A stretch of 64,000 nucleotides of DNA, taken from NCBI GenBank assembly GCA_964513645.1, contig CAZENF010000001.1, positions 200,022-264,021 on the forward strand, in the 5' to 3' direction. The DNA comes from an uncultured Candidatus Saccharibacteria bacterium (lineage in GTDB: Bacteria > Patescibacteriota > Minisyncoccia > 2-02-FULL-40-12 > GWA2-44-9). The notes under the pieces were generated by a model. It had not been told where the DNA came from. It saw nothing but the letters and a program-made list of their open reading frames with translations, and ran no database searches. Below, piece by piece: positions 965-32,388 of this stretch (the stretch's first letter is position 1; each line of letters starts with the position of its first letter). The translations under genes and the position numbers were made by a program.

Positions 965-1537
965 ATGTCTATCAAAAGTTCGATGCTCGAATCCATACAG
1001 ACCAAGATTCAGATCGCCTCAGACGATAAATTTTTGGCCGAAATTCAGAGAGTCGCCAACTATATGACTGCCTGCTTACGGAGCAACCGGAAGATACTCA
1101 TCGCCGGCAATGGCGGCTCGGCCGCGGACGCCCAGCATTTTGCCGCAGAACTTGCCGGACAATTCAAACATACACGCAAAGGCCTGCCGGTCATCGCCCT
1201 GACCACAAACGCATCCATCACCACCGCCATTGGCAATGATTTCGGTTATGAACATGTTTTTTCAAGGCAGGTTGAAGGTTTGGGCCGACAAGGAGATATG
1301 TTCGTCGGAATTTCGACCAGCGGGAACTCACAGAACCTCCTTCACGCACTCGAGGCGGCAAAAAAAGAAGGAATGATAACTGTCGGCCTGTTGGGAAAAA
1401 ACGGCGGTAAAATGAAGGATTTTTGCGACCTGAAACTTATCGTCCCTTCGGACAACACCCAACACATCCAAGAATCTCACATCGTGATAATTCACGAACT
1501 CTGTTCGATAATTGATAACGCTTTTAAACGCTCATAG
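965..1537 (+). CDS. gmhA: D-sedoheptulose-7-phosphate isomerase (phosphoheptose isomerase, SIS domain)
   Basis: 190 aa; ILIAGNGGSAADAQHFAAEL... and GISTSGNS SIS-domain motifs characteristic of GmhA. Confidence 0.9.
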   Translation: MSIKSSMLESIQTKIQIASDDKFLAEIQRVANYMTACLRSNRKILIAGNGGSAADAQHFAAELAGQFKHTRKGLPVIALTTNASITTAIGNDFGYEHVFSRQVEGLGRQGDMFVGISTSGNSQNLLHALEAAKKEGMITVGLLGKNGGKMKDFCDLKLIVPSDNTQHIQESHIVIIHELCSIIDNAFKRS

Positions 1538-5714: not shown

Positions 5715-6698
5715 ATGATAATTACCCGTACACCATTTAGAATATCTTTTTTCGGCGGAGGAACCGACTATCCCGGCTGGTACAAAGAGAACGGCGGAAC
5801 GGTTTTGTCGACCACAATAGATAAATACTGCTATATCAGCTGCCGGCCGCTGCCGCCGTTCTTTAAATACAAACACCGGATAGTTTATTCAAAAACGGAA
5901 AACGCCAAAGATACCAATAAGATAATCCATCCTTCGGTCCGGGAGTGCATTCGTTTTATAGACCTGGACCATGGCCTCGAAATACATCACGACGGAGACT
6001 TGCCGGCAAGATCCGGCCTCGGTTCAAGCTCTTCATTTACCGTCGGCATGATACACGCTCTTTACGGCCTCAAAGGAATGATAAAAAGCAAAAGAGACCT
6101 GGCTCTTGATGCGATCCACGTTGAGCAGGATCTGATAGGAGAAAACGTCGGCTCACAAGACCAGATAGCCGCGGCCTACGGAGGATTCAACAAGATAGAC
6201 CTAAGCGGCGCCCATGTGATATCGGTCCAGCCGGTTATAATGAGTCCGGAACGGTTAAACCATCTTCAGGACCATATGATGCTTTTCTTTACAGGATTAT
6301 CACGCAATGCTTCAGAAGTTGCCAAAACCCAGATAAAGAACATTCCTAAAACCAGAAACGAATTGACGGCCATGACCGCGATCGCAAATGAAGGTTTTTC
6401 TATCATTAAAAACCAGAAACCGGTTGAAGAATTCGGAAAACTACTTAAAGAGTCCTGGCAATACAAACGCAAATTATCCAAAAAAATAAGCAATGAAAAA
6501 ATAGACACCATTTATGCGACCGCGATGAAGGCGGGCGCTTTGGGTGGAAAATTATTGGGCGCCGGCGGAGGCGGGTTCATATTATTTTTTGCCCCGCCTG
6601 AAATACAACCCAAAATAAAAGAAAAGCTGAAGAAACTTCTTTGCGTCCCCTTCCGTTTTGAGAATCAGGGTAGTCAGATAATTTACTACAACCGCTAA
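5715..6698 (+). CDS. hddA: GHMP-family sugar kinase, D-glycero-alpha-D-manno-heptose-7-phosphate kinase (HddA/WcbL)-like
   Basis: 327 aa; N-terminal RISFFGGGTDYPGWY and PARSGLGSSSSF GHMP ATP-binding motif, C-terminal GAGGGGF. Confidence 0.75.
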   Translation: MIITRTPFRISFFGGGTDYPGWYKENGGTVLSTTIDKYCYISCRPLPPFFKYKHRIVYSKTENAKDTNKIIHPSVRECIRFIDLDHGLEIHHDGDLPARSGLGSSSSFTVGMIHALYGLKGMIKSKRDLALDAIHVEQDLIGENVGSQDQIAAAYGGFNKIDLSGAHVISVQPVIMSPERLNHLQDHMMLFFTGLSRNASEVAKTQIKNIPKTRNELTAMTAIANEGFSIIKNQKPVEEFGKLLKESWQYKRKLSKKISNEKIDTIYATAMKAGALGGKLLGAGGGGFILFFAPPEIQPKIKEKLKKLLCVPFRFENQGSQIIYYNR

Positions 6699-6775: not shown

Positions 6776-7378
6776 ATGCACCCGAGATACCAGCTTGGCC
6801 AGACCACTGAAGAACTGGAAGGCAAGATAGAAGTTTATGATACAACCCTGCCGGGAGTAAAAAAGATCAGAAGAAAAATTACCCATGACCACCGCGGACA
6901 TTACGGCGAGCTCTACAGTAAAAAGATCTACTTTGCCAACGGAGTCACGGTTGATTTTACCGAAGGCGAGCAGGACTGTTCCTGTTCCCGGAAAAATACA
7001 CTCCGCGGATTACACGGTGATTCAAGGACCTGGAAATTAATAACCTGCCTTTTTGGCAGATTTCATCTGGTAGTTCTGAACTACAACCCTGCTTCTGCCC
7101 TCTTCGGACGTTGGGAAGGATTCGATATGTCGGCCGAGGAAGGCTGGCAAATCCTCATCCCACCACGTCACTGCAACGGTCACCTTATCCTTTCGGATAT
7201 CGCACTTTTTCATTATAATCAGTCCGAATATTATTCGGGGCCCGAACTCCAGAACGTAATAAAATGGGACGATCCGAGATTTAACATTGACTGGCCGATC
7301 GAGAACAAATCAAAACTTCTACTTTCCCCCCGCGACAGCCAAGGCGCTTCCTATTCAGACCTTTCCGCCAAAAAATAA
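6776..7378 (+). CDS. RmlC-like cupin: nucleotide-sugar 3,5-epimerase (dTDP-4-dehydrorhamnose 3,5-epimerase family)
   Basis: 200 aa; RGLHGD...KLITCLFGRFHLVVLN...FGRWEGFDMSAEEGWQILIPPRHCNGHLILSD...HYNQSEYYSGPE follows the RmlC pattern (RGLH, KLV.V, FG.W, IP.G.AHGF, Y). Confidence 0.65.
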   Translation: MHPRYQLGQTTEELEGKIEVYDTTLPGVKKIRRKITHDHRGHYGELYSKKIYFANGVTVDFTEGEQDCSCSRKNTLRGLHGDSRTWKLITCLFGRFHLVVLNYNPASALFGRWEGFDMSAEEGWQILIPPRHCNGHLILSDIALFHYNQSEYYSGPELQNVIKWDDPRFNIDWPIENKSKLLLSPRDSQGASYSDLSAKK

Positions 7379-7408: not shown

Positions 7409-7906
7409 CTAACCGCTCGTTTTTATCTTATGGATTATTTTGGTGGTTGAAATAGAATCGAAACCCGGCGGACAAACCCGCTTTGAAATAATGAATTTTA
7501 CATCATATTTTTCGGCAATTTTTTTACGATAAGGGATATCGAAGGCATCTTCATTGATAACATAAACATCCGGCTTCAATCTTTTAAAATTAGGTTCGAG
7601 ATGGGACAAAAGATTTTCATAGTTCGGCAGTTGACTCAAAAAAGTATAATCAACAACCTTAAGCGAATCTATCATTTTAAGTCTGGTGTCATTATTGAGA
7701 ATCGGGCGGGTTTTTCCTTTATATTTCCGGATATCTTTCTCCGCTCCGACACCCACAACTAAAACATCCCCCCGGCTTTTAGAATCTTCCAAGAACAGTA
7801 CATGTCCGGCATGGGTCAGGTCAAATGTCCCGTCGCAATATACTATCTTTTTGTCGGAATTCTGTTTTCTAAGCTGCGAAAATTTTGTTGGTGTTATAAT
7901 AGCCAT
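7409..7906 (-). CDS. Stand-alone cytidylyltransferase-like nucleotidyltransferase (RfaE domain II / TagD-like)
   Basis: 165 aa; KKIVYCDGTFDLTHAGHVLFLE carries the (H/T)xGH nucleotidyltransferase motif. Paralog of 22147..22626. Confidence 0.75.
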   Translation of the reverse strand: MAIITPTKFSQLRKQNSDKKIVYCDGTFDLTHAGHVLFLEDSKSRGDVLVVGVGAEKDIRKYKGKTRPILNNDTRLKMIDSLKVVDYTFLSQLPNYENLLSHLEPNFKRLKPDVYVINEDAFDIPYRKKIAEKYDVKFIISKRVCPPGFDSISTTKIIHKIKTSG

Positions 7907-7996
7907 TTTTCATATCATAACATTTTTTTTATTCTTGACAATAAGCGATAAATAAGCGATGATTTGCCATCAATGTTCTTTAAAATAAGGAGTAAA

Positions 7997-8572
7997 GTGG
8001 CTATCCAGATCCCCAAGAAGATCGGTAAGGAAAAGGTTGTCGGCCAGGTTTACGGCAAATCTCTTATCAGCCAGAACTATATCATGCCCCAGACCGGTCG
8101 AATAGAAGAATATGGAAAATTCAGAGGCAAACACCTTTCAGCTTTTATTCTTCCTGTCACCGAAGACAATATGATTGTTGCTATCAGACAATACCGGATG
8201 GGACCGGATGAAATAGTCCTTGAACTACCCGGCGGAAATATCAAACCGGACGAACCACCTGATATGGGAGCACGAAGAGAACTTCAGGAAGAAACCGGCT
8301 ATTTGGCCGGCACCATGGTATCTTTGTCGGGATGCAAGAAGGTATGCCTCGACCCGGCAAGTTCAGATATATATTTTTATCCTTTTCTGGCCTTGAACTG
8401 CAAGTACACCGACAGAAGGAATCTTGATGTGAACGAAGACATCGAGATAGTCCTAAAGTCATGGCTGGAATGGTTGGATGCCGTTTACAAGATCAGCTCT
8501 AACAGTTCCTACTCCATGCTGACAACCCTGCTCGCACTGCCCCACGTCCAGAAATTGGAAGCGTTCCGATGA
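7997..8572 (+). CDS. NUDIX hydrolase
   Basis: Nudix box GARRELQEETGY. The ORF is open from 7964, but AAGGAG (7987-7992) followed by an in-frame GTG at 7997 is the more likely start. Confidence 0.75.
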   Translation: MAIQIPKKIGKEKVVGQVYGKSLISQNYIMPQTGRIEEYGKFRGKHLSAFILPVTEDNMIVAIRQYRMGPDEIVLELPGGNIKPDEPPDMGARRELQEETGYLAGTMVSLSGCKKVCLDPASSDIYFYPFLALNCKYTDRRNLDVNEDIEIVLKSWLEWLDAVYKISSNSSYSMLTTLLALPHVQKLEAFR

Positions 8573-9534
8573 TAACCACGGAAATTTCACTTGAACTTTA
8601 CGGACGGATGTATCGGATCCGTAAATCCGAAGAAAAGATCATCGAAGAATATTTTAACGATGCCATGAAAACTCCAATGCATATGTCGATGGGTTCCGAA
8701 GCGATCGCAGCCGGTGTCTGCACCGCCTTAGACGACGCTGCCCAGATCTGGGGAACTTATCGGAGTCACGCGACATATCTTGCTCGGACCAAAGACGTGA
8801 ACGGTTTTTTCACGGAACTTTACGGCAAGGTTACTGGACCGGGAGGAGGCAAAGCAGGTTCGATGCATTTAGCCGACCCGGAACAAGGTTTGGTTATGGC
8901 TTCGGCTGTGGTTGCGACAAACATCTCACCGGCCTTAGGCGCCGCTTTTGCCAACAAAATTCTCAAAAATCATGATATCGCTGTTACCTTTTTTGGTGAC
9001 GGCGCCGTTGATGAAGGTGTTTTCTGGGAAAGCATCAATCTCGCTTCTGTCTTGAGTTTGCCAGTCCTGTTCGTCTACGAAGACAACGGTCTGGCTATTC
9101 ATACCTCGGCCAAAAGCCGGCATGGTTATGACAATATCGGAAATCTGATAAAACAATATGCCAACTGGCATTATCTCGAATACGGTGGAACAGACGTTGA
9201 AGAAATATTTCAATTGACCGCAAATGCTTATTTCGGCCAATTGATGCGCGGACCGGTTTTCTTGTCACTTAAATACTACCGCTATCTTGAACATGTCGGT
9301 GTCAATGAAGATTTTAAGGCCGGTTATCGAAGCCGCGAAGAATTTGAAAAGTGGCAAAAAATTGACCCTCTGACCGTTCAAAAGAACCGATTGACCGACC
9401 TTGGTCTTGCCAAAGAGGTTTCACGATTGGAGACAGAGATATTGAATCAGATAGAAGAGGCCGTTACCTATGCAAAAAGCAGCCCTTATCCCGAACCCGG
9501 AGCTTTGTACGAAGGAGTGTACGATGACGAATAA
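8569..9534 (+). CDS. TPP-dependent 2-oxoacid dehydrogenase E1 component, alpha subunit (PDH/acetoin-DH E1-alpha-like)
   Basis: 321 aa; TPP-binding GDGAVDEGVFWESINLA...LPVLFVYEDNGLAI. ATGA overlap with the upstream stop. Confidence 0.8.
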   Translation: MITTEISLELYGRMYRIRKSEEKIIEEYFNDAMKTPMHMSMGSEAIAAGVCTALDDAAQIWGTYRSHATYLARTKDVNGFFTELYGKVTGPGGGKAGSMHLADPEQGLVMASAVVATNISPALGAAFANKILKNHDIAVTFFGDGAVDEGVFWESINLASVLSLPVLFVYEDNGLAIHTSAKSRHGYDNIGNLIKQYANWHYLEYGGTDVEEIFQLTANAYFGQLMRGPVFLSLKYYRYLEHVGVNEDFKAGYRSREEFEKWQKIDPLTVQKNRLTDLGLAKEVSRLETEILNQIEEAVTYAKSSPYPEPGALYEGVYDDE

Positions 9535-10573
9535 CAGAGTTATCTCCTATGAAAAAGCCCTGAACGAAGCCATCAGTCAAGAAATGGCGGCTGATGAAAG
9601 AGTTTTTGTATACGGCCTCGATGTTGACGACCACAAACGGATATTCGGAACAACCGTAGGTTTGGTGCAAAAATTCGGTCCCGAAAGATGTTTCAGCACT
9701 CCCTTGTCTGAAGAGTCTCTGATGGGATTAGGCATCGGTGCCGCAGCTTCGGGCTTAAGACCGATAAACCTACACATCCGGATAGAGTTTTTGCTTTTGG
9801 CCCTGAATCAACTTATAAATATCGGCTCATCCCTCCGTTACGGAAGTAACGGAAAACTTTCAACTCCGATGGTTATAATCGGTATTATCGGCCGAGGCTG
9901 GGGACAAGGTTTCCAGCATTCAAAAAGCCTTCAGTCATTTTTTGCCCATATTCCGGGATTAAAAGTGATAATGCCCACTACCCCTTACGATATAAAAGGC
10001 ATGATGACATCGGCGATACAGGACAACAACATCGTCGTTTGTCTCCTTCACCGCTGGCTTTACTGGATAGAAGGCCATGTTCCGGAAACACAGTACAAAG
10101 TTCCGATAGGCATGAGCCGTATTCTGCGCGAAGGTTCCGACATAACCATTGTCGCTACATCCTGGATGAACATCGAAGCACATGATGCGGCCAATGTCCT
10201 GGCCAAAAGAAATGTCAGCGTCGAGATTATCGACGCACGGACAATTTCGCCTCTTGATTACAGCATGATAGTTCATTCGGTCAACCAGACCGGCCGGTGC
10301 ATCATCGCAGACTATGACTGGCTCAACTGCGGCTTCAGCGCCGAGGTTACAGCCAGAGTTTCAGAGCAATGCTTCGGTAAGCTCAAACTTCCGGTCGCCC
10401 GGATAGGATTTGCCGAGACACCCTGCCCGACGACCAGACCCCTTGAGAACATGTTCTATCCTGACGCCAAATCGATAATCAGAAAAGCCGAAAGAATGCT
10501 CGGTCTTTCTCCTGCCGATCTGTCCGAAGAGAAATTCCACACCTGGGAAAACAAATTCAAAGGACCTTTTTAA
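9524..10573 (+). CDS. TPP-dependent 2-oxoacid dehydrogenase E1 component, beta subunit (transketolase-like pyrimidine-binding and C-terminal domains)
   Basis: MTNNRVISYEKALNEAISQEMAADERVFVYG...TPLSEESLMGLGIGAAASGLRPI... The ORF is open from 9470, but the ATG at 9524 overlaps the alpha stop (ATGACGAATAA) and fits the canonical E1-beta N-terminus. Confidence 0.8.
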   Translation: MTNNRVISYEKALNEAISQEMAADERVFVYGLDVDDHKRIFGTTVGLVQKFGPERCFSTPLSEESLMGLGIGAAASGLRPINLHIRIEFLLLALNQLINIGSSLRYGSNGKLSTPMVIIGIIGRGWGQGFQHSKSLQSFFAHIPGLKVIMPTTPYDIKGMMTSAIQDNNIVVCLLHRWLYWIEGHVPETQYKVPIGMSRILREGSDITIVATSWMNIEAHDAANVLAKRNVSVEIIDARTISPLDYSMIVHSVNQTGRCIIADYDWLNCGFSAEVTARVSEQCFGKLKLPVARIGFAETPCPTTRPLENMFYPDAKSIIRKAERMLGLSPADLSEEKFHTWENKFKGPF

Positions 10574-10672: not shown

Positions 10673-12379
10673 TTGATAATTTTAGGGATGCTGACCTATT
10701 CTCACGATACGTCCGCCGCCATCTTAAAAGACGGCCGCGTATTGTTTGCCGCCGAAGAAGAAAGGTTCAACGGCGAAAAACATACCACAAAATTTCCGCA
10801 TAATGCGATCAAGGCATGCCTTGATTTCGCAAAGATCACGCTCGATGATGTGGACGTCATCTGCGTTCCCAACATCCCGATAATGAGCGTCCGTCTGCGC
10901 TTCATCCGGAACTGGTACCGCCATTTTCCCAAAGTAACGCCGAGGATGTTAGCTGAATCAAAATGGATAGACAGATTCATTTATATTGAACAGGATATCA
11001 GAGAAAATCTGAATTTCCAAAAAAAAATATTTTTCTGTCATCACCACCTCGCCCACATGGCAAGTGCTTATTACCTTTCCGGATTTTCGTCGAGCGCGCT
11101 TTTGAGCATCGACGGAGTTGGAGACATTGAAAGTCTGACAACCGGAGTTGCCGAAAACAACAAACTGAAGCTTTTCAAGAAAGACAGCGTCGAATGGCCT
11201 CACTCGATGGGTGTTCTATACACTTGTATCACGGATTATCTTGGCTTTAAGCGCCATTGCGATGAAGGCAAGGTCATGGGTCTTGCCCCTTATGGCAACA
11301 TCGAAACTTTTAGAAAGATATTCGAGAAAGTTGTTTTACTCGGTCCGCGCGGCAGATTTGCCCTCGACTATAAGTATTTCGATTATCCGTACATTCAAGG
11401 TTCAACAATGTCGGATGTTTTCAAAGAACTGTGCGGTCCGTCGAGACAAAAAGACGAACCGATCACCCAAAGGCACATGGATATCGCCGCGGCGGCGCAA
11501 TACATGACCGAGAAGGTCATGGTTAATTCAGCCCGGTATCTTCAAGAAAAAACCGGACAAACAAATCTTTCGATGGCCGGCGGCGTAGCGCTTAACTGTG
11601 TCGCTAACGGAAAAATCCTCACCGAAACACCTTTTAAGAATATCTTCATCCAGCCCGCGGCAAATGATTCGGGAGCTTCTCTCGGGGCCGCCCTTTATTA
11701 TCATTATCTGAAAAACAAGAACGCGGAACGTTACCGCCTGAACAATGCTTATCTGGGAAACGGATATGATAACACGGAAGTATTCAAAGCATTAATTTAT
11801 GCTAAAAATAAAGTTAATTTTGTAACCGGACCAAAAGATAAAATGAACCATTATATAGCACGGTTCCTGGCTAGCGGAAAAATAGTCGCCTGGTTCAACG
11901 GACGATTCGAATACGGCCCGAGAGCCCTCGGCAATCGCTCTATCATTACGGCACCGTTCCCGGCAGAAATGAAGGATATTCTAAACTCGCGAGTTAAACA
12001 CCGTGAATCATTCCGGCCTTTTGCTCCGGTTGTTCTCGAAGAAGACTGCGGTGAATATTTCGACAACATTCATATTTCACCCTATATGCTTCTGACCTAT
12101 GGTGTCAGACCTGAAAAAAAACACCAGGTTCCCGCAATCACCCACGTTGACGGAACGGCCAGAGTCCAGACAGTAAATGAAGAACAAAATCCTGACCTTT
12201 ATAACCTTATCAAAGAGTTCAAAACCCAAACCGGAATAGGTATCATTCTGAACACCTCATTCAATGTCATGGGTCAGCCGATAATCAATACCCCCGAAGA
12301 AGCCATTGAATGCTTCCTGGGTACGGATATCGACTATTTGGTCCTGAACGGAGAATTCCTTGTCTCGAAAGCTGCTTAG
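10673..12379 (+). CDS. NodU/CmcH-family O-carbamoyltransferase
   Basis: 568 aa; N-terminal ILGMLTYSHDTSAAILKDGRVLFAAEEERFN (Kae1/YgjD-like fold) and a C-terminal carbamoyltransferase domain. AAGGAGG Shine-Dalgarno before the TTG start. Confidence 0.85.
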   Translation: MIILGMLTYSHDTSAAILKDGRVLFAAEEERFNGEKHTTKFPHNAIKACLDFAKITLDDVDVICVPNIPIMSVRLRFIRNWYRHFPKVTPRMLAESKWIDRFIYIEQDIRENLNFQKKIFFCHHHLAHMASAYYLSGFSSSALLSIDGVGDIESLTTGVAENNKLKLFKKDSVEWPHSMGVLYTCITDYLGFKRHCDEGKVMGLAPYGNIETFRKIFEKVVLLGPRGRFALDYKYFDYPYIQGSTMSDVFKELCGPSRQKDEPITQRHMDIAAAAQYMTEKVMVNSARYLQEKTGQTNLSMAGGVALNCVANGKILTETPFKNIFIQPAANDSGASLGAALYYHYLKNKNAERYRLNNAYLGNGYDNTEVFKALIYAKNKVNFVTGPKDKMNHYIARFLASGKIVAWFNGRFEYGPRALGNRSIITAPFPAEMKDILNSRVKHRESFRPFAPVVLEEDCGEYFDNIHISPYMLLTYGVRPEKKHQVPAITHVDGTARVQTVNEEQNPDLYNLIKEFKTQTGIGIILNTSFNVMGQPIINTPEEAIECFLGTDIDYLVLNGEFLVSKAA

Positions 12380-12398
12380 ATATAAGCAGCTTTTTTTA
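12369..12398 (+). terminator. Rho-independent terminator
   Basis: AAGCTGCTTA-GATA-TAAGCAGCTT: 10-bp stem followed by TTTTTTT. The stop codon lies within the stem. Confidence 0.65.
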
Positions 12399-12484
12399 TT
12401 AAATGGTCAAGATTGACCGAACTAAAAAAATATTATAAATAAAAGTCAAAATCGTACCTTTACAATCCTGACAGGGAGTCTTAA

Positions 12485-13660
12485 GTGAACCATCCTTTCA
12501 AGTATCCCCTTGCTTCTGACACAATAGATGACGCTAACCTTGAAGAACTAATTTCCTGGTTCAAAACAAAACCCCAGCTGACCATGGGTGAAGTGACGAA
12601 AAAATACGAGAAAGTATGGTCTGAATGGGTTGGCAGAAGATCCGTTTTTGTTAATTCCGGTTCATCCGCTAATTTAGCGATGTATTCGGTCTTGGATTGC
12701 TCAAGCCAGCTGATGAACAAGAAAGTCATCGTTCCAAGCAATGGCTGGGCTACGACCATTGATCCCGCGATCCAGCTTGGATTTCAACCTTTGATGTGCG
12801 AAGCTGATCCTGACACATTCGGTCTCGACCTCGACCATCTCGAAGAATTGCTTGAAGAACACCGGCCGGCTACGGTTATGCTCGTTCATGCGCTTGGCGT
12901 TCCCCATAAAATGGATGAACTAATGGCGCTTAAAGAAAAATATGAATTCATCCTTCTGGAAGACGCCTGTGCTTCGGTCGGTTCAGCTTACAAAGGCAAG
13001 CGGGTGGGAACTTTCGGAGATATGTCGAGCTTTTCGACCTATTTCGGCCACCAATCCTCAAGCGTCGAAGGCGGCTTTATTTTTACCGACAACAAAGAGT
13101 TCTATAACATCCTCCGAATGATAAGAAGCCACGGCTGGGCTAAAGACCTCGATGAAGAAACCTACAACAACCATTTCAGCAAATACAACATCGACCCCGC
13201 TCATCGGCCTTTTGCATTTTTTTACCCGGGATATAACATCCGACCGACAGATATTCAGGCAAAGATAGGTCTTGGGCAATTTGAAAAATTCGAATGGGTG
13301 AGAAAGAACCGCATCCGGAATCATGAACTCTATAAAACCCTGCTCCGAAATGATTTCGGCGTTCAAAAGTATTCATCCGATGAAGTTGAGGTTTGCAGCA
13401 TCAGTTTTGCGATCTTGGCCAAAGATCCCGAAGAACGGGATAAGGTTGTGCATGCCCTGAATAACAACAGTATCGAGACCAGACTTTATTCGGCGGCCAA
13501 TCTTGGCCTGCACCCTTTCTGGTATGACAATTTCGGAAAATTCCTGGCACCAAACGCAACTCGGTTATACAGCTGCGGCTTGTTCCTGCCGAACCATCCT
13601 GATCTTGAAAGGTCAGACATAGAATTCATTTCAAAAGTTGCACTGGGGGCAAAAAAATGA
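12485..13660 (+). CDS. DegT/DnrJ/EryC1 family enzyme with His replacing the PLP-lysine: PMP-dependent sugar 3-dehydratase-like (ColD/E1 (RfbH/DdhC) type)
   Basis: 391 aa. SFSTYFGHQSSSVEGG aligns gap-free with FAFYPNKQMTTGEGG (45620 ORF) and [16 protein letters not shown] (56839 ORF), placing H where both paralogs have the Schiff-base K. N-terminus LASDTIDDANLEEL..TMGEVTKKYEKVWSEW.G...V.VNSGSSANL resembles RfbH/ColD. AGGGAG Shine-Dalgarno before the GTG start. Confidence 0.65.
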   Translation: MNHPFKYPLASDTIDDANLEELISWFKTKPQLTMGEVTKKYEKVWSEWVGRRSVFVNSGSSANLAMYSVLDCSSQLMNKKVIVPSNGWATTIDPAIQLGFQPLMCEADPDTFGLDLDHLEELLEEHRPATVMLVHALGVPHKMDELMALKEKYEFILLEDACASVGSAYKGKRVGTFGDMSSFSTYFGHQSSSVEGGFIFTDNKEFYNILRMIRSHGWAKDLDEETYNNHFSKYNIDPAHRPFAFFYPGYNIRPTDIQAKIGLGQFEKFEWVRKNRIRNHELYKTLLRNDFGVQKYSSDEVEVCSISFAILAKDPEERDKVVHALNNNSIETRLYSAANLGLHPFWYDNFGKFLAPNATRLYSCGLFLPNHPDLERSDIEFISKVALGAKK

Positions 13661-14607
13661 GAAAGATCAAGGTCCTGATCACCGGAGGCGCGGGGTATAT
13701 AGGTTCAGTATTGGTTCCTAAATTGTTAGAAACCGGCATTTACAAAATAGCGGTCATCGACAACTTCATGTACCAAGAACCTTCCCTGGTCAATGTTTCC
13801 GACAATCCCGATCTGACCATTCTAAATTCCGATATCAGGGATTATAAACTGGTTAATTTTATAGCCCCAAAATCGGACTATATTTTACCATTGGCCTGCC
13901 TGACCGGTGCACCCATTTGCGACCGTTATCCCAATCAGGCCAGAGAAGTAATAGTGGACGCATTAAAAAATATGATAAGTTCGCTAAAACCCAACCAGAG
14001 ACTGATCTATCCTACAACCAACAGCGGCTACGGGATCGGTAGCGACGATATCTATTGCGATGAGAATAGTCCGCTTAACCCGATATCACATTACGGCCGT
14101 TTGAAAGTCGAAGCCGAAAAAATGATATTGGAAAGAAAAGGAATCGCTCTTAGACTGGCCACCGTTTTCGGTGTCAGCCCGAGAATGAGATTAGACCTCC
14201 TTGTGAACGACATGACCTTCGAGGCGGTTAAGAAGGGTCATATAAAACTTTATGAACCGCATTTCAAAAGAAACTTCATCCACGTCAGAGATATTGCCGA
14301 CGCTTTTGTTTTTTGTCTGAACAATTTTGAAAAAATGCAAGGACAAGTATACAACGTCGGCCTCAGCGAAGCGAATATAAGCAAAATGGACCTGTGCCTG
14401 ATGATAAAAGAGCGGGTACCGAAACTCGAAATAACAACCGATGATTCAAAGAAGGATCCGGACCAGCGCAACTATATTGTCAATAACGAAAAGATCGAAG
14501 CTCTCGGTTTTAAAGCGAAGGTTTCCCTTAAAACCGGAATTCAGGAACTGATAAAATATTACGAGATGCTCGATTATTCCCAAAGACAAAGATTTTCGAA
14601 CATTTAA
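13657..14607 (+). CDS. NAD-dependent epimerase/dehydratase (extended SDR)
   Basis: 316 aa; VLITGGAGYIGS Rossmann motif. Paralog of 34051..34980 (shared VIDNxM, SPRxRLDLxxND, TFIHVxD). Confidence 0.8.
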   Translation: MRKIKVLITGGAGYIGSVLVPKLLETGIYKIAVIDNFMYQEPSLVNVSDNPDLTILNSDIRDYKLVNFIAPKSDYILPLACLTGAPICDRYPNQAREVIVDALKNMISSLKPNQRLIYPTTNSGYGIGSDDIYCDENSPLNPISHYGRLKVEAEKMILERKGIALRLATVFGVSPRMRLDLLVNDMTFEAVKKGHIKLYEPHFKRNFIHVRDIADAFVFCLNNFEKMQGQVYNVGLSEANISKMDLCLMIKERVPKLEITTDDSKKDPDQRNYIVNNEKIEALGFKAKVSLKTGIQELIKYYEMLDYSQRQRFSNI

Positions 14608-14609
14608 TC

Positions 14610-14636
14610 AAGCCGCCTTAAGGCGGCTTTTTGTTT
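14610..14636 (+). terminator. Rho-independent terminator
   Basis: AGCCGCC-TTAA-GGCGGCT followed by TTTTGTTTG. Confidence 0.6.
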
Positions 14637-15146: not shown

Positions 15147-17222
15147 GTGAGCAAAAAAATCACTGTCGGCCTGTGCCAGATAAATGCCAGCTTCTCGGGG
15201 GTAAGCTACCTGCCCTACTCGGTAGGACTCCTTGAAGCCCACGCCCGTAAAAACCTTCCTGAAATTGATAAATACGAGTTCATGCCTCCGATCTTCGCGA
15301 GAGAATCGGTAGATTCGGCGGTTAAAAAACTTCTGCCGTGTGACGTGGTTTATATCAGTCTTTACGTCTGGAACAACAATCTGGCCCTGATGATTGCCAA
15401 AGAATTAAAAAAGCTCAAGCCCGAGGTTGTCATTGTGGTAGGCGGACCCCATGTCCCCGATAAATACAAATCTCACACCCAGAACAAACAAATAACCCCG
15501 GTTTTTATCGGAATAAAAAATTCAAAATCAACTCGAACCCCGCCTGAACTTTTAAGAACAGAGACCTATCTGCGCGAAAATCCTTATATCGATATTGCCG
15601 TCCACGGTGAAGGCGAAAGAGTTTCAACAATTCTTTTGCAGAACCTTCACGGTGACTGGAGTAAAATACCGTCCATCAGCTACCTGGATAAAGAGGGTTA
15701 TATTGTACAGACCGAAAAAATTTCGCGTCTCAAAGAGCTCGATGAGATACCTTCTCCTTATCTTGAAGGCACCTTCGACTCCCTTATCAAGTCCAACCCT
15801 GACACTAAATGGATAACCGTCTGGGAAACAAACCGCGGCTGTCCTTTCTCCTGCACATTCTGCGACTGGGGTTCCGCGATCGCCTCAAAGGTGTATAAAT
15901 GGGAACTTGAGCGGGCCTACCGCGAAATGGATTGGTTCGCCGCCCATCAGATAGAATTTATTTTTCTGGCTGATGCAAATTTCGGCATCCTGAACCGCGA
16001 CATTGATATCGCAAAATACTGCGCCAGGACCAGAGAATTAACTGGCTATCCGAAAGCGATCACGGTCTCGAACACCAAGAACGCGACCGACCGTTCATAT
16101 CAGGTCCAGAAAATATTTGCCGAAGCCGGCCTTGCCGCCGGAGCTTCGCTCTCAATGCAGTCTCTTGACCCTGGGACTTTGAAAGATATCAAAAGGGACA
16201 ACATCAGTCTCGACTCTTACAACGAGATCCAACAAAGAATGAAACAGGACGGCGTCGCCTCTTTCACAGACATTGTCATCGGTCTGCCCGGTGAAACATA
16301 CGAAACTTTCGCCAATGGTGTCGATCAACTTATCCGGAACGGTCTCCATGACCGGATCCTATTCTATGACCTGACCATTCTGCCCAACGCCGAAATGGCC
16401 GACCCGGGATACCGAAAAAAGTTCGGAATGGAAACCGTTAACGCCAAGACGATAAACATCCACGGCTCACGCAAAGAAATTCAGAATGACGTTCCTGAAT
16501 TCCAGGAAGTCGTCGTCGCAACGGCCGCAATGCCTCGCCCTGACTGGGCAAGGGTCAAAGCTTTCAGCTGGACGGCTGCTTTCCTTCATTTCGACAAGAT
16601 ACTTCAGATACCGCTGGTCCTGATGCATGAGCTGGCCGGCATAAAATACCGTGAGCTTATCGAATTACTTTCCGAAGCAAAATTCGGAAACCCCCGAAAA
16701 TTCCCGACCCTGAATAAGATACATGGCTTTTTCATTGAAAAAGCACGTTCTATCCAGGCAGGCGGCGAGGAGTTCTGCCATTCCAAGGAACACCTCGACA
16801 TGTGGTGGCCGTCAGACGAGAAAATACTCATCGAGCTGGCAACCAATGACGAACTTCCGGGTTTTTACGAAGAAGCATATTTTGCTCTGAAAAATATTCT
16901 GAAAATATCAGGCAAGACCGAATTCGACAATGCTCTTAGAGAATCAGTGATACTTAACGAAGCCCTGCTTAAACTCCCGTTCCTGAACGGCACAGTTAAA
17001 GTAAAGCTTGAACATAACATCTGGGAATTTTACAAGGCCGCGGTCAGGTCGGAACCGATACCGCTTGTAAAACAAAGATCGGTTATCAGTATCAACCGTG
17101 ACATTGAAAAATGGAATTCATGGAACGACTGGTGCCGATTCGTTGTATGGTACGGCAGCAAACAGAGCGCATATCTGTACGGAAATAAATCGGTCCGGGT
17201 ACAAATTGCCGGACATTTCTAA
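15147..17222 (+). CDS. Cobalamin-binding (class B) radical SAM enzyme with a roughly 300-aa C-terminal extension
   Basis: 691 aa; radical SAM CxxxCxxC as ETNRGCPFSCTFCDWG, preceded by a B12-binding-type N-terminal Rossmann region (VVIVVGGPHV). Paralog of 24610..26760. Confidence 0.8.
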   Translation: MSKKITVGLCQINASFSGVSYLPYSVGLLEAHARKNLPEIDKYEFMPPIFARESVDSAVKKLLPCDVVYISLYVWNNNLALMIAKELKKLKPEVVIVVGGPHVPDKYKSHTQNKQITPVFIGIKNSKSTRTPPELLRTETYLRENPYIDIAVHGEGERVSTILLQNLHGDWSKIPSISYLDKEGYIVQTEKISRLKELDEIPSPYLEGTFDSLIKSNPDTKWITVWETNRGCPFSCTFCDWGSAIASKVYKWELERAYREMDWFAAHQIEFIFLADANFGILNRDIDIAKYCARTRELTGYPKAITVSNTKNATDRSYQVQKIFAEAGLAAGASLSMQSLDPGTLKDIKRDNISLDSYNEIQQRMKQDGVASFTDIVIGLPGETYETFANGVDQLIRNGLHDRILFYDLTILPNAEMADPGYRKKFGMETVNAKTINIHGSRKEIQNDVPEFQEVVVATAAMPRPDWARVKAFSWTAAFLHFDKILQIPLVLMHELAGIKYRELIELLSEAKFGNPRKFPTLNKIHGFFIEKARSIQAGGEEFCHSKEHLDMWWPSDEKILIELATNDELPGFYEEAYFALKNILKISGKTEFDNALRESVILNEALLKLPFLNGTVKVKLEHNIWEFYKAAVRSEPIPLVKQRSVISINRDIEKWNSWNDWCRFVVWYGSKQSAYLYGNKSVRVQIAGHF

Positions 17223-19471: not shown

Positions 19472-19600
19472 GATCCGTCATTTAAAAGATGCTGACCCAT
19501 ATTACAGCGCCTTAGGAACTAAATCAAATCATGTTTGACGAACCAATTTTTTGATAGTATAATCTGTCCAGTTATTTTTACAAAAAGGATATATCAATTC

Positions 19601-20407
19601 ATGACCGAACTTCTTAAACTTGAAGAACGAGCAAGGCGAGTAAGAAAAGATATATTAGATATGGCTTATAATGCGAGTGATTCACATATCGGCTGCGCAA
19701 TGTCCGTGGTTGAAATACTTGTCGGCCTCTATTTTAAAGTTATGAATATAAACCCTAATGATCCACGCTGGCAAGAACGTGACCGCTTCGTCTTAAGCAA
19801 AGGCCATGTCGCATCGGCATTATATTCGGTTTTGTCCGAACGGGAATTTTTCCCCAAGAACTTTTTGTCTGAATTCGCCAGGAATGGAAGCTTTTTATCA
19901 AGCCATGTTGACGGTTCCGCTCTTCCCGGAGTTGAGACCTCGGGCGGTTCCGGAGGTCATGGTCTGTCGCTTGGCGCAGGGATGGCCCTTGCTGCCAAGA
20001 TGGATAATTCAAAACGCCGGATATTTGTTCTGTGCGGAGACGGAGAACTTCAGGAAGGTTCGGTCTGGGAAGCGGCGATGTTCGCAGCTTCAAGGAAATT
20101 GAACAACTTAACCCTTGTCATAGATCGAAACCATTATCAAACCTGGGATGATGTTGACAATGTTGTTTCTCCTGAACCTTTGGATAAAAAATTCGACGCT
20201 TTTGGATGGGAAACCGAAAGAGTTGAAGGTCACAGATTTGTCGCCCTGTGTCATGTGCTTAGCAGATATACCGATAGACCGCACGCTGTTATCGCTGAAA
20301 CGGTCAAAGGTAAAGGAATATCATTCATGGAAAACAAAGGAGAATGGCACAATGGCGTCCTCACCAAAGAACAATATGAAGCCGCGGTAAAGGAGGTATC
20401 CTACTAA
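19601..20407 (+). CDS. Transketolase, N-terminal (TPP-binding) subunit of a split transketolase
   Basis: GHVASALYSVL...GSGGHGLSLGAGMALA...VLCGDGELQEGSVWEA. The ORF is open from 19535, but ATG 19601 preceded by AAGGA is the likely start. Confidence 0.8.
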   Translation: MTELLKLEERARRVRKDILDMAYNASDSHIGCAMSVVEILVGLYFKVMNINPNDPRWQERDRFVLSKGHVASALYSVLSEREFFPKNFLSEFARNGSFLSSHVDGSALPGVETSGGSGGHGLSLGAGMALAAKMDNSKRRIFVLCGDGELQEGSVWEAAMFAASRKLNNLTLVIDRNHYQTWDDVDNVVSPEPLDKKFDAFGWETERVEGHRFVALCHVLSRYTDRPHAVIAETVKGKGISFMENKGEWHNGVLTKEQYEAAVKEVSY

Positions 20408-21315
20408 TGCGAAACGCGGTTATCGAAGCTCTATATCAGGAGGCCGTAAAAGATCCCCGGATCTGTTTTTTTACCGGCGATTTCCAGCATGTCAGAGAAA
20501 GAGATTTCATCGCCATGGGACAAAGATACCAGAACGCCGGAATGGCCGAACAGAATATAATCGGTCTCGCTGCAGGTGCAGCATTAAGCGGAAAAAAAGT
20601 TTTCGTTTATTCCATAATCCCCTTCATAACTCTCCGTTGTCTTGAACAGATAAAAATGGATGTTTGCGTCCACAATGTAGACGTAACTATCATCGGCGGC
20701 GGAGCGGGTTTTACTTACGGTACCTGCGGTCCCAGCCATCTTGCAATCGAAGATATTGCAGTAATGCGTGCCTTGCCCAACATGAAAATAGTCTGCCCTT
20801 CCGGCCCGCGGGAAGCGGTCCAGCTTTTGAGTCAGGTCATCAAAGCCAGTGGCCCGACATATTTACGCCTGAACAAAAGAGGAGAAAAGGATCTACACGA
20901 TCATCTCCCGATAATGGGACATGGGGTGGTTATCCGTCCCGGTTCTGACATAACAATAATCGCAACCGGCACCATTGTGGCAGAGGCGCTTGAAGCCGCA
21001 ACAATACTTTCCGCTTCAGGTATTTCAACCGAAGTGGTCAATATGCACACGATAAAACCGATTGACAAAAACCTTATCCTTAAGAGGGTATACACAAAGA
21101 GACTGATCTGTACCCTTGAGGAACACAGCGTCATCGGCGGCTTGGGCAGCGCCGTATCTGAAATTATCGCCGGAAAAAATATCAGAGCGGGTTTTATGTC
21201 ATTTGGCGTAAAGGATAAGTGGCCAGATTTTGTTGGAGACCAGAAATATCTCCGAAAAGGAACAGGTCTCAACGGCGAATCAATCGCATCAGCCATCAAA
21301 GAAAGTTACGTGTAA
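20407..21315 (+). CDS. Transketolase, C-terminal (pyrimidine-binding and C-terminal domain) subunit
   Basis: 302 aa; FFTGDFQHV...GMAEQNIIGLAAGAALSGKKVFVYSIIPF. Start overlaps the upstream stop (TAATG). Confidence 0.8.
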   Translation: MRNAVIEALYQEAVKDPRICFFTGDFQHVRERDFIAMGQRYQNAGMAEQNIIGLAAGAALSGKKVFVYSIIPFITLRCLEQIKMDVCVHNVDVTIIGGGAGFTYGTCGPSHLAIEDIAVMRALPNMKIVCPSGPREAVQLLSQVIKASGPTYLRLNKRGEKDLHDHLPIMGHGVVIRPGSDITIIATGTIVAEALEAATILSASGISTEVVNMHTIKPIDKNLILKRVYTKRLICTLEEHSVIGGLGSAVSEIIAGKNIRAGFMSFGVKDKWPDFVGDQKYLRKGTGLNGESIASAIKESYV

Positions 21316-29176: not shown

Positions 29177-29291
29177 ACTGCAAAATAAAAACCGTTACGA
29201 AAAGGACTGTTTTTTGTTATATATCCTTGATTGACAATGTAGATTTTTAATGATATTGTCTCGCACAAGCACTTTACCAATTGAGGATCTG

Positions 29292-31246: not shown

Positions 31247-31254
31247 TTTGAAAA

Positions 31255-32379: not shown

Positions 32380-32388
32380 TAACACCAC

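What the first reader, a model, noticed from the sequence alone, without database searches (positions are those of the whole stretch)
12485..13660. DegT paralog with His replacing the PLP-lysine: ColD/E1-type PMP-dependent sugar 3-dehydratase
Three DegT-family proteins are present in the window. The motif ...FAFYPNKQMTTGEGG (45620 ORF) and ...[16 protein letters not shown] (56839 ORF) carry the Schiff-base lysine. The collinear segment of this protein reads ...FSTYFGHQSSSVEGG, placing His exactly at the lysine position without gaps. This substitution is the hallmark of the PMP-dependent 3-dehydratases ColD (GDP-4-keto-6-deoxymannose 3-dehydratase, about 390 aa) and E1/DdhC. The 391-aa length matches ColD. 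A Gmd/DmhA-like 4,6-dehydratase (29292..30266) and GMER/RmlD-like reductases (30263..34046) are in the same island. The locus therefore probably makes a 3,6-dideoxy sugar, colitose-like or a 3,6-dideoxyheptose. Such a 4-keto-3,6-dideoxy intermediate is also the classical acceptor for TPP-dependent C2 branching (yersiniose-type chemistry), which ties in with the E1 alpha/beta genes immediately upstream.
Basis: seen in the sequence. Interest (0 to 1): 0.6.

Follow-up and report, generated by a model that had tools for sequence, protein, structure and literature searches.

The report
ColD-like sugar 3-dehydratase, new clade
A gene that databases call a sugar aminotransferase has histidine where the cofactor-binding lysine should be, so it most likely removes the 3-hydroxyl from an activated seven-carbon sugar, as one step of a widespread, unstudied pathway for branched surface sugars in uncultured bacteria.

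Summary
ORF 12485..13660 (+, 391 aa) is a DegT-family protein. Its His189 (CAC, 13049..13051) aligns without gaps to the catalytic His188 of ColD and to the Schiff-base lysines of the two DegT paralogs in the window. ColD is the best solved relative by sequence (E 5e-53) and by fold (TM 0.89). The E1/SpnQ iron-sulfur cysteine motif is absent.

It is not a ColD ortholog. Identity to ColD and to the Campylobacter heptose 3-dehydratase is 32-33%, whereas those two share 60%. It belongs to a separate, highly conserved clade with a G-H-Q motif, found in Patescibacteria, Elusimicrobia, Deltaproteobacteria and Nitrospira.

The gene overlaps (ATGA) a 49%-identical homolog of Cj1427, the GDP-heptose C4-dehydrogenase. 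In 49 of 49 related loci with full flanks, a Cj1427-like gene lies nearby. Three genomes fuse the two genes into one ORF. HddA-like heptose kinases (47/49) and thiamine-dependent enzymes (at least 46/49) also co-occur, but GMD-type 4,6-dehydratases rarely do (4/49).

Most likely function: PMP-dependent 3-dehydration of an NDP-4-keto-heptose, giving the acceptor for thiamine-dependent C-4 branching. The colitose reading is not supported; the branching idea is. This is a new variant of a known enzyme kind.

The parts
12485..13660 (+). DegT-family protein with His189 in place of the Schiff-base Lys. Predicted PMP-dependent NDP-4-keto-heptose 3-dehydratase of ColD type, belonging to the G-H-Q clade.
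13049..13051 (+). CAC codon of the catalytic His189. The flanking residues Gly188 and Gln190 are invariant in the family.
12474..12478 (+). GGGAG ribosome-binding site six nt before the GTG start. It supports the long 391-aa form over the 358-aa public gene call.
12367..12394 (+). Terminator-like hairpin plus T-run at the end of the carbamoyltransferase gene. It separates that gene from the DegT-His/SDR pair.
13657..14607 (+). [quoted passage not shown] Its ATG overlaps the DegT-His stop codon (ATGA). Predicted to supply the 4-keto substrate.
14610..14629 (+). Terminator-like hairpin directly after the SDR gene.
8569..9534 (+). ThDP-dependent E1 alpha-like subunit. No E2 or E3 gene is present in the window. 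Candidate C-4 branching enzyme together with the next gene.
9470..10573 (+). E1 beta-like subunit (Transket_pyr plus Transketolase_C). Orthologs scoring 445-635 bits sit next to DegT-His genes in other phyla.
5715..6698 (+). HddA-like GHMP kinase (D-glycero-D-manno-heptose 7-phosphate kinase type).
965..1537 (+). GmhA, sedoheptulose 7-phosphate isomerase. It scores above the TIGR00441 cut-off.
6776..7378 (+). RmlC-type cupin epimerase, 37% identical over 123 aa to the C. jejuni HS:5 heptose epimerase.
7409..7906 (-). HldE-domain-II-like nucleotidyltransferase (CTP_transf_like). It is the only candidate heptose-1-phosphate nucleotidyltransferase near the cassette.
7964..8572 (+). NUDIX hydrolase, NudE-like.
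10673..12379 (+). Carbamoyltransferase, probably tailoring the sugar. It is syntenic in the closest relatives L001 and L003.
15147..17222 (+). B12-binding radical SAM enzyme whose best match is the KedN5 C-methyltransferase family. Probably tailoring.
19535..21315 (+). Second ThDP pair, split transketolase-like N and C subunits. Its role is open: branching, or supply of sedoheptulose 7-phosphate.

Best explanation
The gene encodes a ColD-type, iron-sulfur-free, PMP-dependent nucleotide-sugar 3-dehydratase from a previously uncharacterised clade.

Proposed pathway:
1. An activated heptose is made by GmhA, an HddA-like kinase and a nucleotidyltransferase.
2. The co-translated Cj1427-like SDR oxidises it at C-4.
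3. PMP on this enzyme forms a ketimine with the 4-keto group.
4. His189 abstracts the C-4' proton of PMP and the 3-hydroxyl is expelled.
5. The ene-amine is hydrolysed to NDP-3-deoxy-4-keto-heptose, ammonia and PLP.
6. PLP is returned to PMP by transamination with L-glutamate.
7. The 4-keto product is then the acceptor for a ThDP-dependent acyl (C2) branch at C-4, added here by the E1 alpha/beta-like pair. Reduction, carbamoylation and radical-SAM methylation follow.

What is shown: the His substitution and its conservation, the ColD-like sequence and fold, the absence of the Fe-S motif, the identity of the neighbour as a Cj1427 homolog, and the conserved linkage and fusion.

What is inferred: the chemistry (by analogy with ColD), the substrate, the nucleotide and the branching step.
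For: Enzyme class:
- DegT fold with His189 in the Lys column, matching ColD His188.
- ColD is the top PDB hit by sequence (E 5e-53, above E1 at 4e-36).
- ColD is also the top hit by fold: AF2 model pLDDT 93.7, Foldseek best hit 2gms with TM 0.89.
- Residues that align with ColD Asp159, Ser183, Asn248, Arg250, Glu329 and Arg331 are invariant in the family.
- The E1 region CYCAPGCDNTC has no cysteine counterpart in this protein. The protein has five scattered Cys, of which only two are conserved.

Substrate:
- The downstream gene overlaps by ATGA and is 49% identical to PDB 6vo6/6vo8 (E 3e-93). [quoted passage not shown]
- A Cj1427-like gene lies within 10 kb in 74 of 81 related loci and in 49 of 49 loci with at least 8 kb on both sides. 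The median gap is 394 bp.
- Three Patescibacteria MAGs encode DegT-His and the Cj1427-like domain as a single ORF of 725-747 aa.
- HddA-like kinases occur in 47 of 49 loci and NTP_transferases in 40 of 49. The window also holds GmhA, an HddA-like kinase and an RmlC-type epimerase.
- The two-step chemistry has been shown in vitro with relatives: Cj1427 plus the C. jejuni ColD-type dehydratase converts GDP-heptose to GDP-D-glycero-3-deoxy-4-keto-heptose (PMC10680097).

Branching:
- ThDP enzymes co-occur in 42 of 49 full-flank loci, and four more carry a pair of the divergent E1-like type confirmed in L037.
- NDP-4-keto-3-deoxy sugars are the known acceptors of YerE-type and AviB1/B2-type ThDP branching enzymes (PMC9306805; PMC4753412).
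Against: - No biochemical data exist for any member of this clade.
- Identity to ColD is only 33%. Family-specific changes sit at the active site: Gly188 where ColD has Ser187, Gln190 where it has His189, and Ala163 where it has Glu162. Altered chemistry cannot be excluded.
- The window protein departs from its own family at about ten otherwise invariant positions.
- The window has no HddC-type NTP_transferase and no recognisable GmhB phosphatase, so the nucleotide and the completeness of the heptose route here are open.
- A GMD-type dehydratase (29250..30266) and a second Cj1427 paralog (34051..34980) are also in the window, so a 6-deoxy substrate is possible.
- The split-transketolase pairs could supply sedoheptulose 7-phosphate rather than add a branch.
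- Residue-level structural superposition was not available. The His placement rests on ungapped, high-confidence sequence alignments.
Confidence: 0.6

Rival explanations
1. It is a 3-dehydratase acting on a 6-deoxy-4-keto sugar made by a 4,6-dehydratase, such as the 29250..30266 gene. The product would be a 3,6-dideoxyheptose, as in Campylobacter HS:5, or a 3,6-dideoxyhexose.
For: A GDP_Man_Dehyd-type ORF is present in the window. GMD-type genes sit next to the DegT-His gene in about 10 of the 81 loci. ColD-type enzymes accept both 6-deoxy and 6-hydroxy 4-keto-heptoses in vitro.
Against: The 29250 gene is 16 kb away, in a separate block with a GT11 fucosyltransferase-like gene, and falls below all NCBIfam cut-offs. 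GMD-type genes accompany the family in only 4 of 49 full-flank loci, against 49 of 49 for Cj1427-like genes. The fusion partner is the C4-dehydrogenase type.
Confidence: 0.15
2. It is a true ColD, a GDP-4-keto-6-deoxy-D-mannose 3-dehydratase on the colitose pathway.
For: ColD is the closest solved protein and has nearly the same length (390-residue PDB chain against 391 aa). There is no Fe-S motif.
Against: Identity is 33%, whereas E. coli ColD and the C. jejuni enzyme share 60%. All 200 family members are 28-38% identical to ColD. The motif is G-H-Q, not S-H-H. The adjacent SDR is Cj1427-like rather than ColC/GMER-like. The conserved context is heptose activation plus ThDP enzymes.
Confidence: 0.08
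3. It is an ordinary sugar aminotransferase, as NCBI names several members, or it works mainly as a 4-aminotransferase the way SpnQ does without its reductase.
For: It has the DegT fold. Sources name homologs 'DegT/DnrJ/EryC1/StrS family aminotransferase'. SpnQ shows transaminase activity in vitro (PMC8987622).
Against: The Schiff-base Lys is absent in all 200 family sequences examined. In ColD and E1, aminotransferase behaviour required mutating His to Lys. No Lys lies at or next to the aligned position.
Confidence: 0.05
4. It is an E1/SpnQ-type 3-dehydrase that needs a [2Fe-2S] cluster and an external reductase (E3 or ferredoxin).
For: The best NCBIfam hit is RfbH (183 bits). JGI labels several homologs CDP-6-deoxy-D-xylo-4-hexulose-3-dehydrase.
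Against: The RfbH score is far below the 423-bit cut-off. The E1 cysteine motif region has no Cys in this protein. No E3, ferredoxin or flavodoxin-reductase gene was found among the annotated ORFs of the window. The protein is about 45 aa shorter than E1.
Confidence: 0.03

Closest known systems
ColD / WbdK, GDP-4-keto-6-deoxy-D-mannose 3-dehydratase of E. coli O55:H7 (PDB 2gms, 3b8x, 2r0t, 3gr9)
   Same: DegT fold and length. The catalytic His sits at the Lys position. There is no Fe-S cluster. Residues aligning with Asp159, Ser183, Asn248, Arg250, Glu329 and Arg331 are conserved. It is the best hit by sequence and by fold.
   Different: Only 33% identical. The motif is G-H-Q rather than S-H-H, and Ala replaces Glu162. 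The partner gene is a C4-dehydrogenase rather than GMD/ColC, and the family is linked to ThDP enzymes.
C. jejuni HS:5/HS:11 C3-dehydratase (GDP-6-deoxy-4-keto-heptose 3-dehydratase; Ghosh et al. 2023, PMC10440746)
   Same: It acts on GDP-heptose derivatives. In vitro it also dehydrates the Cj1427 product to GDP-3-deoxy-4-keto-heptose, which is the reaction proposed here.
   Different: It belongs to the ColD clade (60% identical to ColD, 32% to this protein). In its native setting it works after a 4,6-dehydratase. The Cj1427 combination was presented in that paper as an in vitro synthesis of novel GDP-heptoses.
E1 (AscC/DdhC/RfbH) of Yersinia and SpnQ of Saccharopolyspora
   Same: His replaces Lys, and both carry out PMP-dependent C-3 deoxygenation of NDP-4-keto sugars. 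E1 feeds the YerE branching step of yersiniose biosynthesis.
   Different: They carry a four-Cys [2Fe-2S] motif and need a reductase. Identity is 28%, and E1 is 437 aa long.
[quoted passage not shown] This is the closest known relative of the partner gene 13657..14607.
   Same: 49% identity over 302 aa. The active-site strand reads TNSGYG and lacks the Asp/Glu of 4,6-dehydratases.
   Different: In C. jejuni it feeds epimerases and reductases, not a 3-dehydratase. Here it is translationally coupled to one, and elsewhere fused to one.
Acyl-branched sugar pathways: YerE/ErwE/MMAR_2332 (single-chain ThDP enzymes) and AviB1/AviB2 (E1 alpha/beta-like pair)
   Same: A ThDP enzyme adds an acyl group to C-4 of an NDP-3-deoxy-4-keto sugar, and reduction follows (PMC9306805, PMC4753412). 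All three ThDP architectures occur next to this family.
   Different: The known acceptors are 3,6-dideoxyhexoses or pentoses made via E1 or other routes. A heptose acceptor made by a Cj1427-type plus ColD-type pair has not been described in the literature searched.

Membership tests
DegT/DnrJ/EryC1/StrS (Pfam PF01041) sugar aminotransferase superfamily | Whole-protein match to the family profile above the gathering score | tested here: met
   225.9 bits against a cut-off of 19.8, covering residues 20-382.
PMP-dependent nucleotide-sugar 3-dehydratases (ColD, E1, SpnQ) | Histidine in place of the Schiff-base lysine | tested here: met
   His189 aligns with ColD His188, with the first His of the E1 A-H-H motif, and with the Lys of both paralogs. 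It is conserved in 119/119 homologs and 81/81 loci.
PMP-dependent nucleotide-sugar 3-dehydratases (ColD, E1, SpnQ) | Closer to known dehydratases than to aminotransferases in sequence and fold | tested here: met
   The top seven PDB sequence hits are ColD variants, E1 and a putative 3-dehydratase. The six best Foldseek hits are ColD chains, TM 0.86-0.89, followed at rank 7 by a sugar transaminase (7b0m, TM 0.84).
PMP-dependent nucleotide-sugar 3-dehydratases (ColD, E1, SpnQ) | C-3 deoxygenation activity on an NDP-4-keto sugar | not testable with these tools
   This needs an enzyme assay.
ColD sensu stricto (GDP-4-keto-6-deoxy-D-mannose 3-dehydratase, colitose pathway) | Orthology-level similarity to characterised ColD enzymes | tested here: not met
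   33% identity to E. coli ColD and 32% to the C. jejuni enzyme, while those two share 60% (62-67% in PMC10440746). The whole family is 28-38% identical to ColD.
ColD sensu stricto (GDP-4-keto-6-deoxy-D-mannose 3-dehydratase, colitose pathway) | Ser187-His188-His189 active-site motif | tested here: not met
   The motif is Gly188-His189-Gln190, invariant in the family.
ColD sensu stricto (GDP-4-keto-6-deoxy-D-mannose 3-dehydratase, colitose pathway) | Gene context with GMD and ColC (GDP-colitose synthase) | tested here: not met
   The adjacent SDR is Cj1427-like. The GMD-like ORF is 16 kb away. GMD-type genes occur in 4 of 49 full-flank loci.
ColD sensu stricto (GDP-4-keto-6-deoxy-D-mannose 3-dehydratase, colitose pathway) | No iron-sulfur cluster; PMP regenerated with glutamate | tested here: inconclusive
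   Absence of the Cys motif is shown. Use of glutamate is inferred only.
E1 / RfbH / DdhC (CDP-6-deoxy-L-threo-D-glycero-4-hexulose 3-dehydrase) | Four-Cys [2Fe-2S] motif (one Cys in EDCC plus C-x-C-x7-C) | tested here: not met
   The E1 segment RDCYCAPGCDNTC aligns to AKDL...DEETYNNH with no Cys.
E1 / RfbH / DdhC (CDP-6-deoxy-L-threo-D-glycero-4-hexulose 3-dehydrase) | NCBIfam NF011936 equivalog score | tested here: not met
   183.4 bits against a cut-off of 423.
E1 / RfbH / DdhC (CDP-6-deoxy-L-threo-D-glycero-4-hexulose 3-dehydrase) | Partner reductase E3 (AscD) nearby | tested here: not met
   No such domain was found among the annotated ORFs of the 64-kb window.
G-H-Q clade of His-DegT proteins (defined here) | At least 50% identity to clade members, the [YF][FY]GHQ motif, and an adjacent Cj1427-like SDR | tested here: met
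   50.5-72% identity to 200 members, motif present, SDR overlapping by ATGA.

The most novel reading that the evidence does not exclude
The DegT-His gene, the Cj1427-like dehydrogenase (sometimes fused to it), an HddA-type kinase, a nucleotidyltransferase and a ThDP enzyme together form a widespread, undescribed pathway in Patescibacteria, Nitrospira, Elusimicrobia and others. The pathway would make 3-deoxy-4-C-acyl-branched heptoses, a class of higher-carbon branched sugars not yet reported from any glycan. The 2-oxoglutarate released when the dehydratase regenerates PMP from glutamate could be the oxidant that the Cj1427-type enzyme needs to recycle its bound NADH, making the pair a self-contained redox/amino cycle.
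Probability: 0.35. Interest if true: 0.7.

Novelty: new variant of a known kind. Interest (0 to 1): 0.5.

Why it matters
PMP-dependent 3-dehydratases have been characterised in only a few lineages (ColD, E1, SpnQ). This is a fourth, large and very conserved clade that annotation pipelines label as an aminotransferase or as E1.

Its constant pairing with a heptose C4-dehydrogenase, and its occasional fusion to one, points to a natural route to 3-deoxy-4-keto-heptoses. So far that combination has only been assembled in vitro from Campylobacter enzymes.

Its near-universal linkage to thiamine-dependent enzymes predicts C-branched heptoses on the surfaces of organisms whose glycans are essentially unknown. 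These include candidate-phyla-radiation bacteria and nitrite-oxidising Nitrospira.

The finding gives concrete, cheap experiments: two or three recombinant enzymes and a known substrate. It also suggests an annotation rule, namely that G-H-Q next to a Cj1427-like gene marks a heptose 3-dehydratase.

Tried and rejected
- Exact look-up of the public gene product P0001 found no contig record, and the cluster look-up gave no name or accession. The source organism is therefore only inferred: the closest syntenic relative is an uncultured Saccharibacteria MAG at 71% identity.
- The primary ColD, E1 and Cj1427 structure papers are not held. ColD ligand-contact residues could not be checked against the literature. 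Only alignment conservation is reported.
- Single-sequence AlphaFold of the SDR failed (pLDDT 33.8). Its Foldseek result was used only to read the PDB titles of 6vo6 and 6vo8, not as structural evidence.
- No HddC-type NTP_transferase, inositol-phosphatase-like or YerE-like gene is in the window, and no GmhB was recognised among the unannotated ORFs.
- Literature searches for a ThDP-branched heptose or a natural 3-deoxy-heptose pathway found nothing relevant.
- Colitose, E1-type and plain aminotransferase readings were considered and rejected for the reasons given under the rival explanations.
- The two apparently long DegT-His ORFs in L036 and L066 were dismissed as start-codon artefacts of mechanical ORF calling in high-GC DNA, not fusions.
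Full report
**1. The observation**

ORF 12485..13660 (+) is real: 391 aa, GTG start. It matches Pfam DegT_DnrJ_EryC1 at 1.1e-66, as do the ORFs at 45620 and 56839.

In a MAFFT alignment with 119 database homologs, ColD and the two window paralogs, the segment FSTYFGHQSSSVEGG aligns without gaps to three sequences. These are ColD FSSFYSHHIATMEGG, 45620 FAFYPNKQMTTGEGG and 56839 [16 protein letters not shown]. His189 lies in the lysine column.

The PDB rows for ColD H188N (3b8x...YSNH...) and H188K (2r0t...YSKH...) identify which ColD histidine is residue 188. That residue is the one paired with His189.

The codon is CAC (13049..13051), two changes away from any Lys codon. His is present in 119 of 119 homologs and in 81 of 81 related genomic loci.

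**2. What kind of protein it is**

The best solved relatives by sequence are four ColD entries (E 5e-53 to 9e-52). Next come E1 (4e-36), a putative NDP-4-keto-6-deoxyglucose 3-dehydratase (1e-31), and only then aminotransferases.

An AlphaFold2 model built on a 49-sequence family alignment is confident (mean pLDDT 93.7, pTM 0.92). Its top Foldseek matches in the PDB are ColD chains with TM 0.86-0.89.

Residues that align with ColD Asp159, Ser183, Asn248, Arg250, Glu329 and Arg331 are invariant in the family.

The E1 segment that carries three cysteines of its [2Fe-2S] motif (RDCYCAPGCDNTC) aligns to a Cys-free stretch of this protein. The protein's five cysteines are scattered, and only two are conserved. 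No E3-like reductase gene was found among the annotated ORFs of the window.

According to the review PMC8987622, two features define the ColD type among 3-dehydratases. One is His in place of Lys. The other is absence of the Fe-S cluster, with hydrolysis of the ene-amine and regeneration of PMP by glutamate. The protein therefore works like ColD.

**3. It is not a ColD ortholog**

- Identity is 33% to E. coli ColD, 32% to the C. jejuni HS:5 heptose C3-dehydratase, 28% to E1 and 25-26% to the window's Lys-bearing paralogs.
- ColD and the Campylobacter enzyme share 60% here, and 62-67% according to PMC10440746.
- Across 200 family sequences, identity to the query is 50.5-72%, but to ColD only 28-38%.
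- The family is very conserved: 132 positions are at least 97% identical among the 119 homologs.
- It has its own signature. Gly-His-Gln replaces ColD's Ser-His-His, and Ala163 sits where ColD, E1 and the aminotransferases have Glu, Asp or Gln.
- No NCBIfam model reaches its cut-off; the best is RfbH at 183 bits against 423.
- Source names are generic ('aminotransferase') or the automatic label 'CDP-6-deoxy-D-xylo-4-hexulose-3-dehydrase'.
- Members come from Patescibacteria (Saccharibacteria, Liptonbacteria, Yanofskybacteria, Jorgensenbacteria, Wolfebacteria), Elusimicrobia, Deltaproteobacteria, Omnitrophota and many Nitrospira, including the complete Ca. Nitrospira defluvii genome.
- The closest relative (71%) is an uncultured Saccharibacteria MAG. 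Its locus is syntenic with the window over about 21 kb.

**4. The neighbour sets the substrate**

The DegT-His stop codon overlaps the start of the next gene (ATGA at 13657..13660). Terminator-like hairpins at 12367..12394 and 14610..14629 bracket the pair.

That gene (13657..14607) is an extended SDR. It matches PDB 6vo6/6vo8 at E 2.8e-93 with 49% identity over 302 residues. [quoted passage not shown] The active-site strand of the window protein reads TTNSGYG, like Cj1427's NTNSGYG. From my own knowledge of RmlB and GMD motifs, this strand lacks the Asp/Glu that 4,6-dehydratases carry there.

**5. Comparative genomics**

I fetched 84 loci and reduced them to 81 non-redundant ones. I called ORFs mechanically and searched them with the window's proteins and with the Cj1427 sequence.

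A Cj1427-like gene scoring at least 250 bits lies within the locus in 74 of 81 cases. The median gap to the DegT-His gene is 394 bp.

Among the 49 loci with at least 8 kb on both sides of the DegT-His gene:

| Neighbour | Loci with it |
|---|---|
| Cj1427-like SDR | 49 |
| HddA-like GHMP kinase | 47 |
| NTP_transferase | 40 |
| Any ThDP enzyme | 42 |
| E1 alpha/beta-like pair | 10 |
| Split transketolase-like pair | 11 |
| YerE/acetolactate-synthase-like | 23 |
| GMD-type 4,6-dehydratase | 4 |

Four of the seven loci scored as lacking a ThDP enzyme (L037, L042, L045, L050) carry weak E1-alpha hits. Pfam confirmed these as a divergent E1_dh plus Transket_pyr pair in L037.

In three independent Patescibacteria assemblies (L013, L017, L020), the DegT-His domain and a Cj1427-like domain are one continuous ORF of 725-747 aa. 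The Cj1427-like domain is 57-58% identical to Cj1427. Such a fusion is strong evidence that the two activities act on the same molecule.

**6. The rest of the local cassette**

- GmhA (965..1537) scores above the TIGR00441 cut-off.
- The GHMP kinase (5715..6698) has its best matches to HddA and to the solved heptose kinases 4usk, 3k85 and 4n3o.
- There is an RmlC-type cupin epimerase (6776..7378), an HldE-domain-II-like nucleotidyltransferase (7409..7906, minus strand) and a NudE-like NUDIX hydrolase.
- This is essentially the Campylobacter heptose-modification toolkit plus a 3-dehydratase.
- Upstream lies an E1 alpha/beta-like ThDP pair with no E2 or E3 gene, then a carbamoyltransferase.
- Downstream lie a B12-radical SAM enzyme of the KedN5 C-methyltransferase type, a SAM methyltransferase, and a second ThDP pair with an SDR and an aldo-keto reductase.

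**7. Proposed mechanism**

Shown:
- the sequence features of the protein;
- the identity of its partner gene;
- the conserved linkage and the fusion.

Established for relatives:
- Cj1427 plus a ColD-type dehydratase converts GDP-heptose to GDP-D-glycero-3-deoxy-4-keto-heptose in vitro.
- ThDP enzymes of the YerE class, and the AviB1/AviB2 two-protein complex, add acyl branches at C-4 of NDP-3-deoxy-4-keto sugars.

Inferred for this locus:
- An NDP-heptose is oxidised at C-4 by the 13657 product.
- The DegT-His enzyme forms the PMP ketimine and His189 removes the C-4' proton.
- The 3-OH leaves, and the ene-amine hydrolyses to the 3-deoxy-4-keto sugar, ammonia and PLP. Glutamate restores PMP.
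- The E1 alpha/beta-like pair then adds a two-carbon unit from pyruvate at C-4. Reduction, carbamoylation and C-methylation follow.

A further inference of my own concerns cofactors. The 2-oxoglutarate released in PMP regeneration is the co-substrate that Cj1427-type enzymes consume, so the coupled or fused pair could balance itself.

**8. Caveats**

- No member of the clade has been assayed.
- The active-site differences from ColD could mean altered chemistry.
- The window protein carries about ten substitutions at positions invariant in the rest of its family. Examples are D18N, L26F, V86N, Q135H and G338A.
- The window lacks an HddC-type transferase and a recognisable GmhB, so the activating nucleotide is uncertain.
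- A GMD-like gene and a second Cj1427 paralog elsewhere in the window keep a 6-deoxy substrate possible.
- The split transketolases may make sedoheptulose 7-phosphate rather than a branch.
- I could not superpose structures residue by residue. The His placement rests on ungapped alignments with maximal posterior support.

**9. Verdict**

Its interpretation is partly supported. The enzyme class (ColD type, not E1 type) and the link to ThDP branching are right. The ColD orthology and the colitose or 3,6-dideoxy route via the distant Gmd-like gene are not supported.

The protein is a new variant of a known kind: a distinct, widespread clade of His-DegT 3-dehydratases tied to heptose C-4 oxidation and C-branching. 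Interest is moderate (0.5). The enzyme chemistry is known, but the pathway it implies is not. That pathway appears in poorly understood lineages and can be tested directly.

Noticed in passing
window 12485-12586: The public gene call for this ORF (P0001, 358 aa) starts at Met34. Seven family-invariant residues (L9, A10, D12, T13, W25, P30, T33) lie upstream of that start. The GTG at 12485 has a GGGAG six nt before it, so the deposited start is probably wrong.
   Followed up: yes
L013 1381-3558; L017 9992-12229; L020 9992-12235: Single ORFs of 725-747 aa fuse a DegT-His domain (about 58% identical to the query) to a Cj1427-like SDR (57-58% identical to Cj1427). They occur in three independent Patescibacteria MAGs.
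   Followed up: yes
window 12485-13660: The window protein alone departs from about ten positions that are at least 97% conserved in its 119 nearest homologs: N18, F26, A65, N86, Q101, H135, A136, S193, A338 and an inserted E300. The ORF is intact. The cause is unresolved (long branch, new specificity or relaxed constraint).
   Followed up: partly
window 34051-34980: A second Cj1427-like SDR paralog (45.5% identical to Cj1427) lies at the end of a block that holds a GMD-like dehydratase (29250) and several other SDRs.
   Followed up: partly
window 37200-47756: This is a nonulosonic-acid biosynthesis block. It holds a HisF/HisH-like fusion (37200), a WbuX amidotransferase (38776), a CMP-sugar synthetase-like gene (40028), NeuB (41775) and a hydrolysing UDP-GlcNAc 2-epimerase (42829). 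It also holds an ATP-grasp gene (43925), the Lys-bearing DegT 45620 (best match PseC/LegC) and a PseB/LegB-like dehydratase (46740).
   Followed up: partly
window 52733-57945 (minus strand): The Lys-bearing DegT 56839 sits with a PMT_2 (GT-C) glycosyltransferase (55424), a GT2 (54730) and a GT1 (52733). The arrangement resembles Arn-type transfer of a lipid-linked amino sugar.
   Followed up: no
window 15147-17222, 24610-26760, 58057-59565: Three large radical SAM genes lie in one glycan island. Pfam finds a B12-binding domain in 15147 and 58057, but not in 24610. The first gene's best match is the KedN5 C-methyltransferase family. B12-radical SAM genes also recur in the Nitrospira cassettes (L037, L054).
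   Followed up: partly
window 19535-24516; also L001, L003, L023 (and L004 without the short SDR): A conserved quartet recurs with the DegT-His gene: split transketolase-like N and C subunits, a short-chain SDR and an aldo-keto reductase. L004 shows the transketolase pair and the reductase but no hit for the short-chain SDR. The function is unknown; branch formation or supply of a heptulose phosphate are both possible.
   Followed up: partly
window 32425-33132 and 33105-34046: The 235-aa ORF covers only the N-terminal half of an RmlD-type reductase and overlaps the next SDR gene by 28 nt. It may be a truncated or split gene.
   Followed up: no
window 3741-5708: A 655-aa ORF has no Pfam or NCBIfam match. 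A 657-aa product sits in the same position upstream of the GHMP kinase in the Saccharibacteria relative L001; its sequence could not be compared because that gene runs off the end of the locus.
   Followed up: no
L054 13882-15243; L037 15759-16976: The Nitrospira versions of the cassette add a class I/II aminotransferase between the nucleotidyltransferase and the ThDP or radical SAM genes. This hints at an amino-substituted branch in those organisms.
   Followed up: no
window 27439-29176: A GT11 (fucosyltransferase-family) gene and a PhyH-type dioxygenase lie just upstream of the GMD-like gene. This suggests a separate 6-deoxy-sugar module, distinct from the DegT-His cassette.
   Followed up: no
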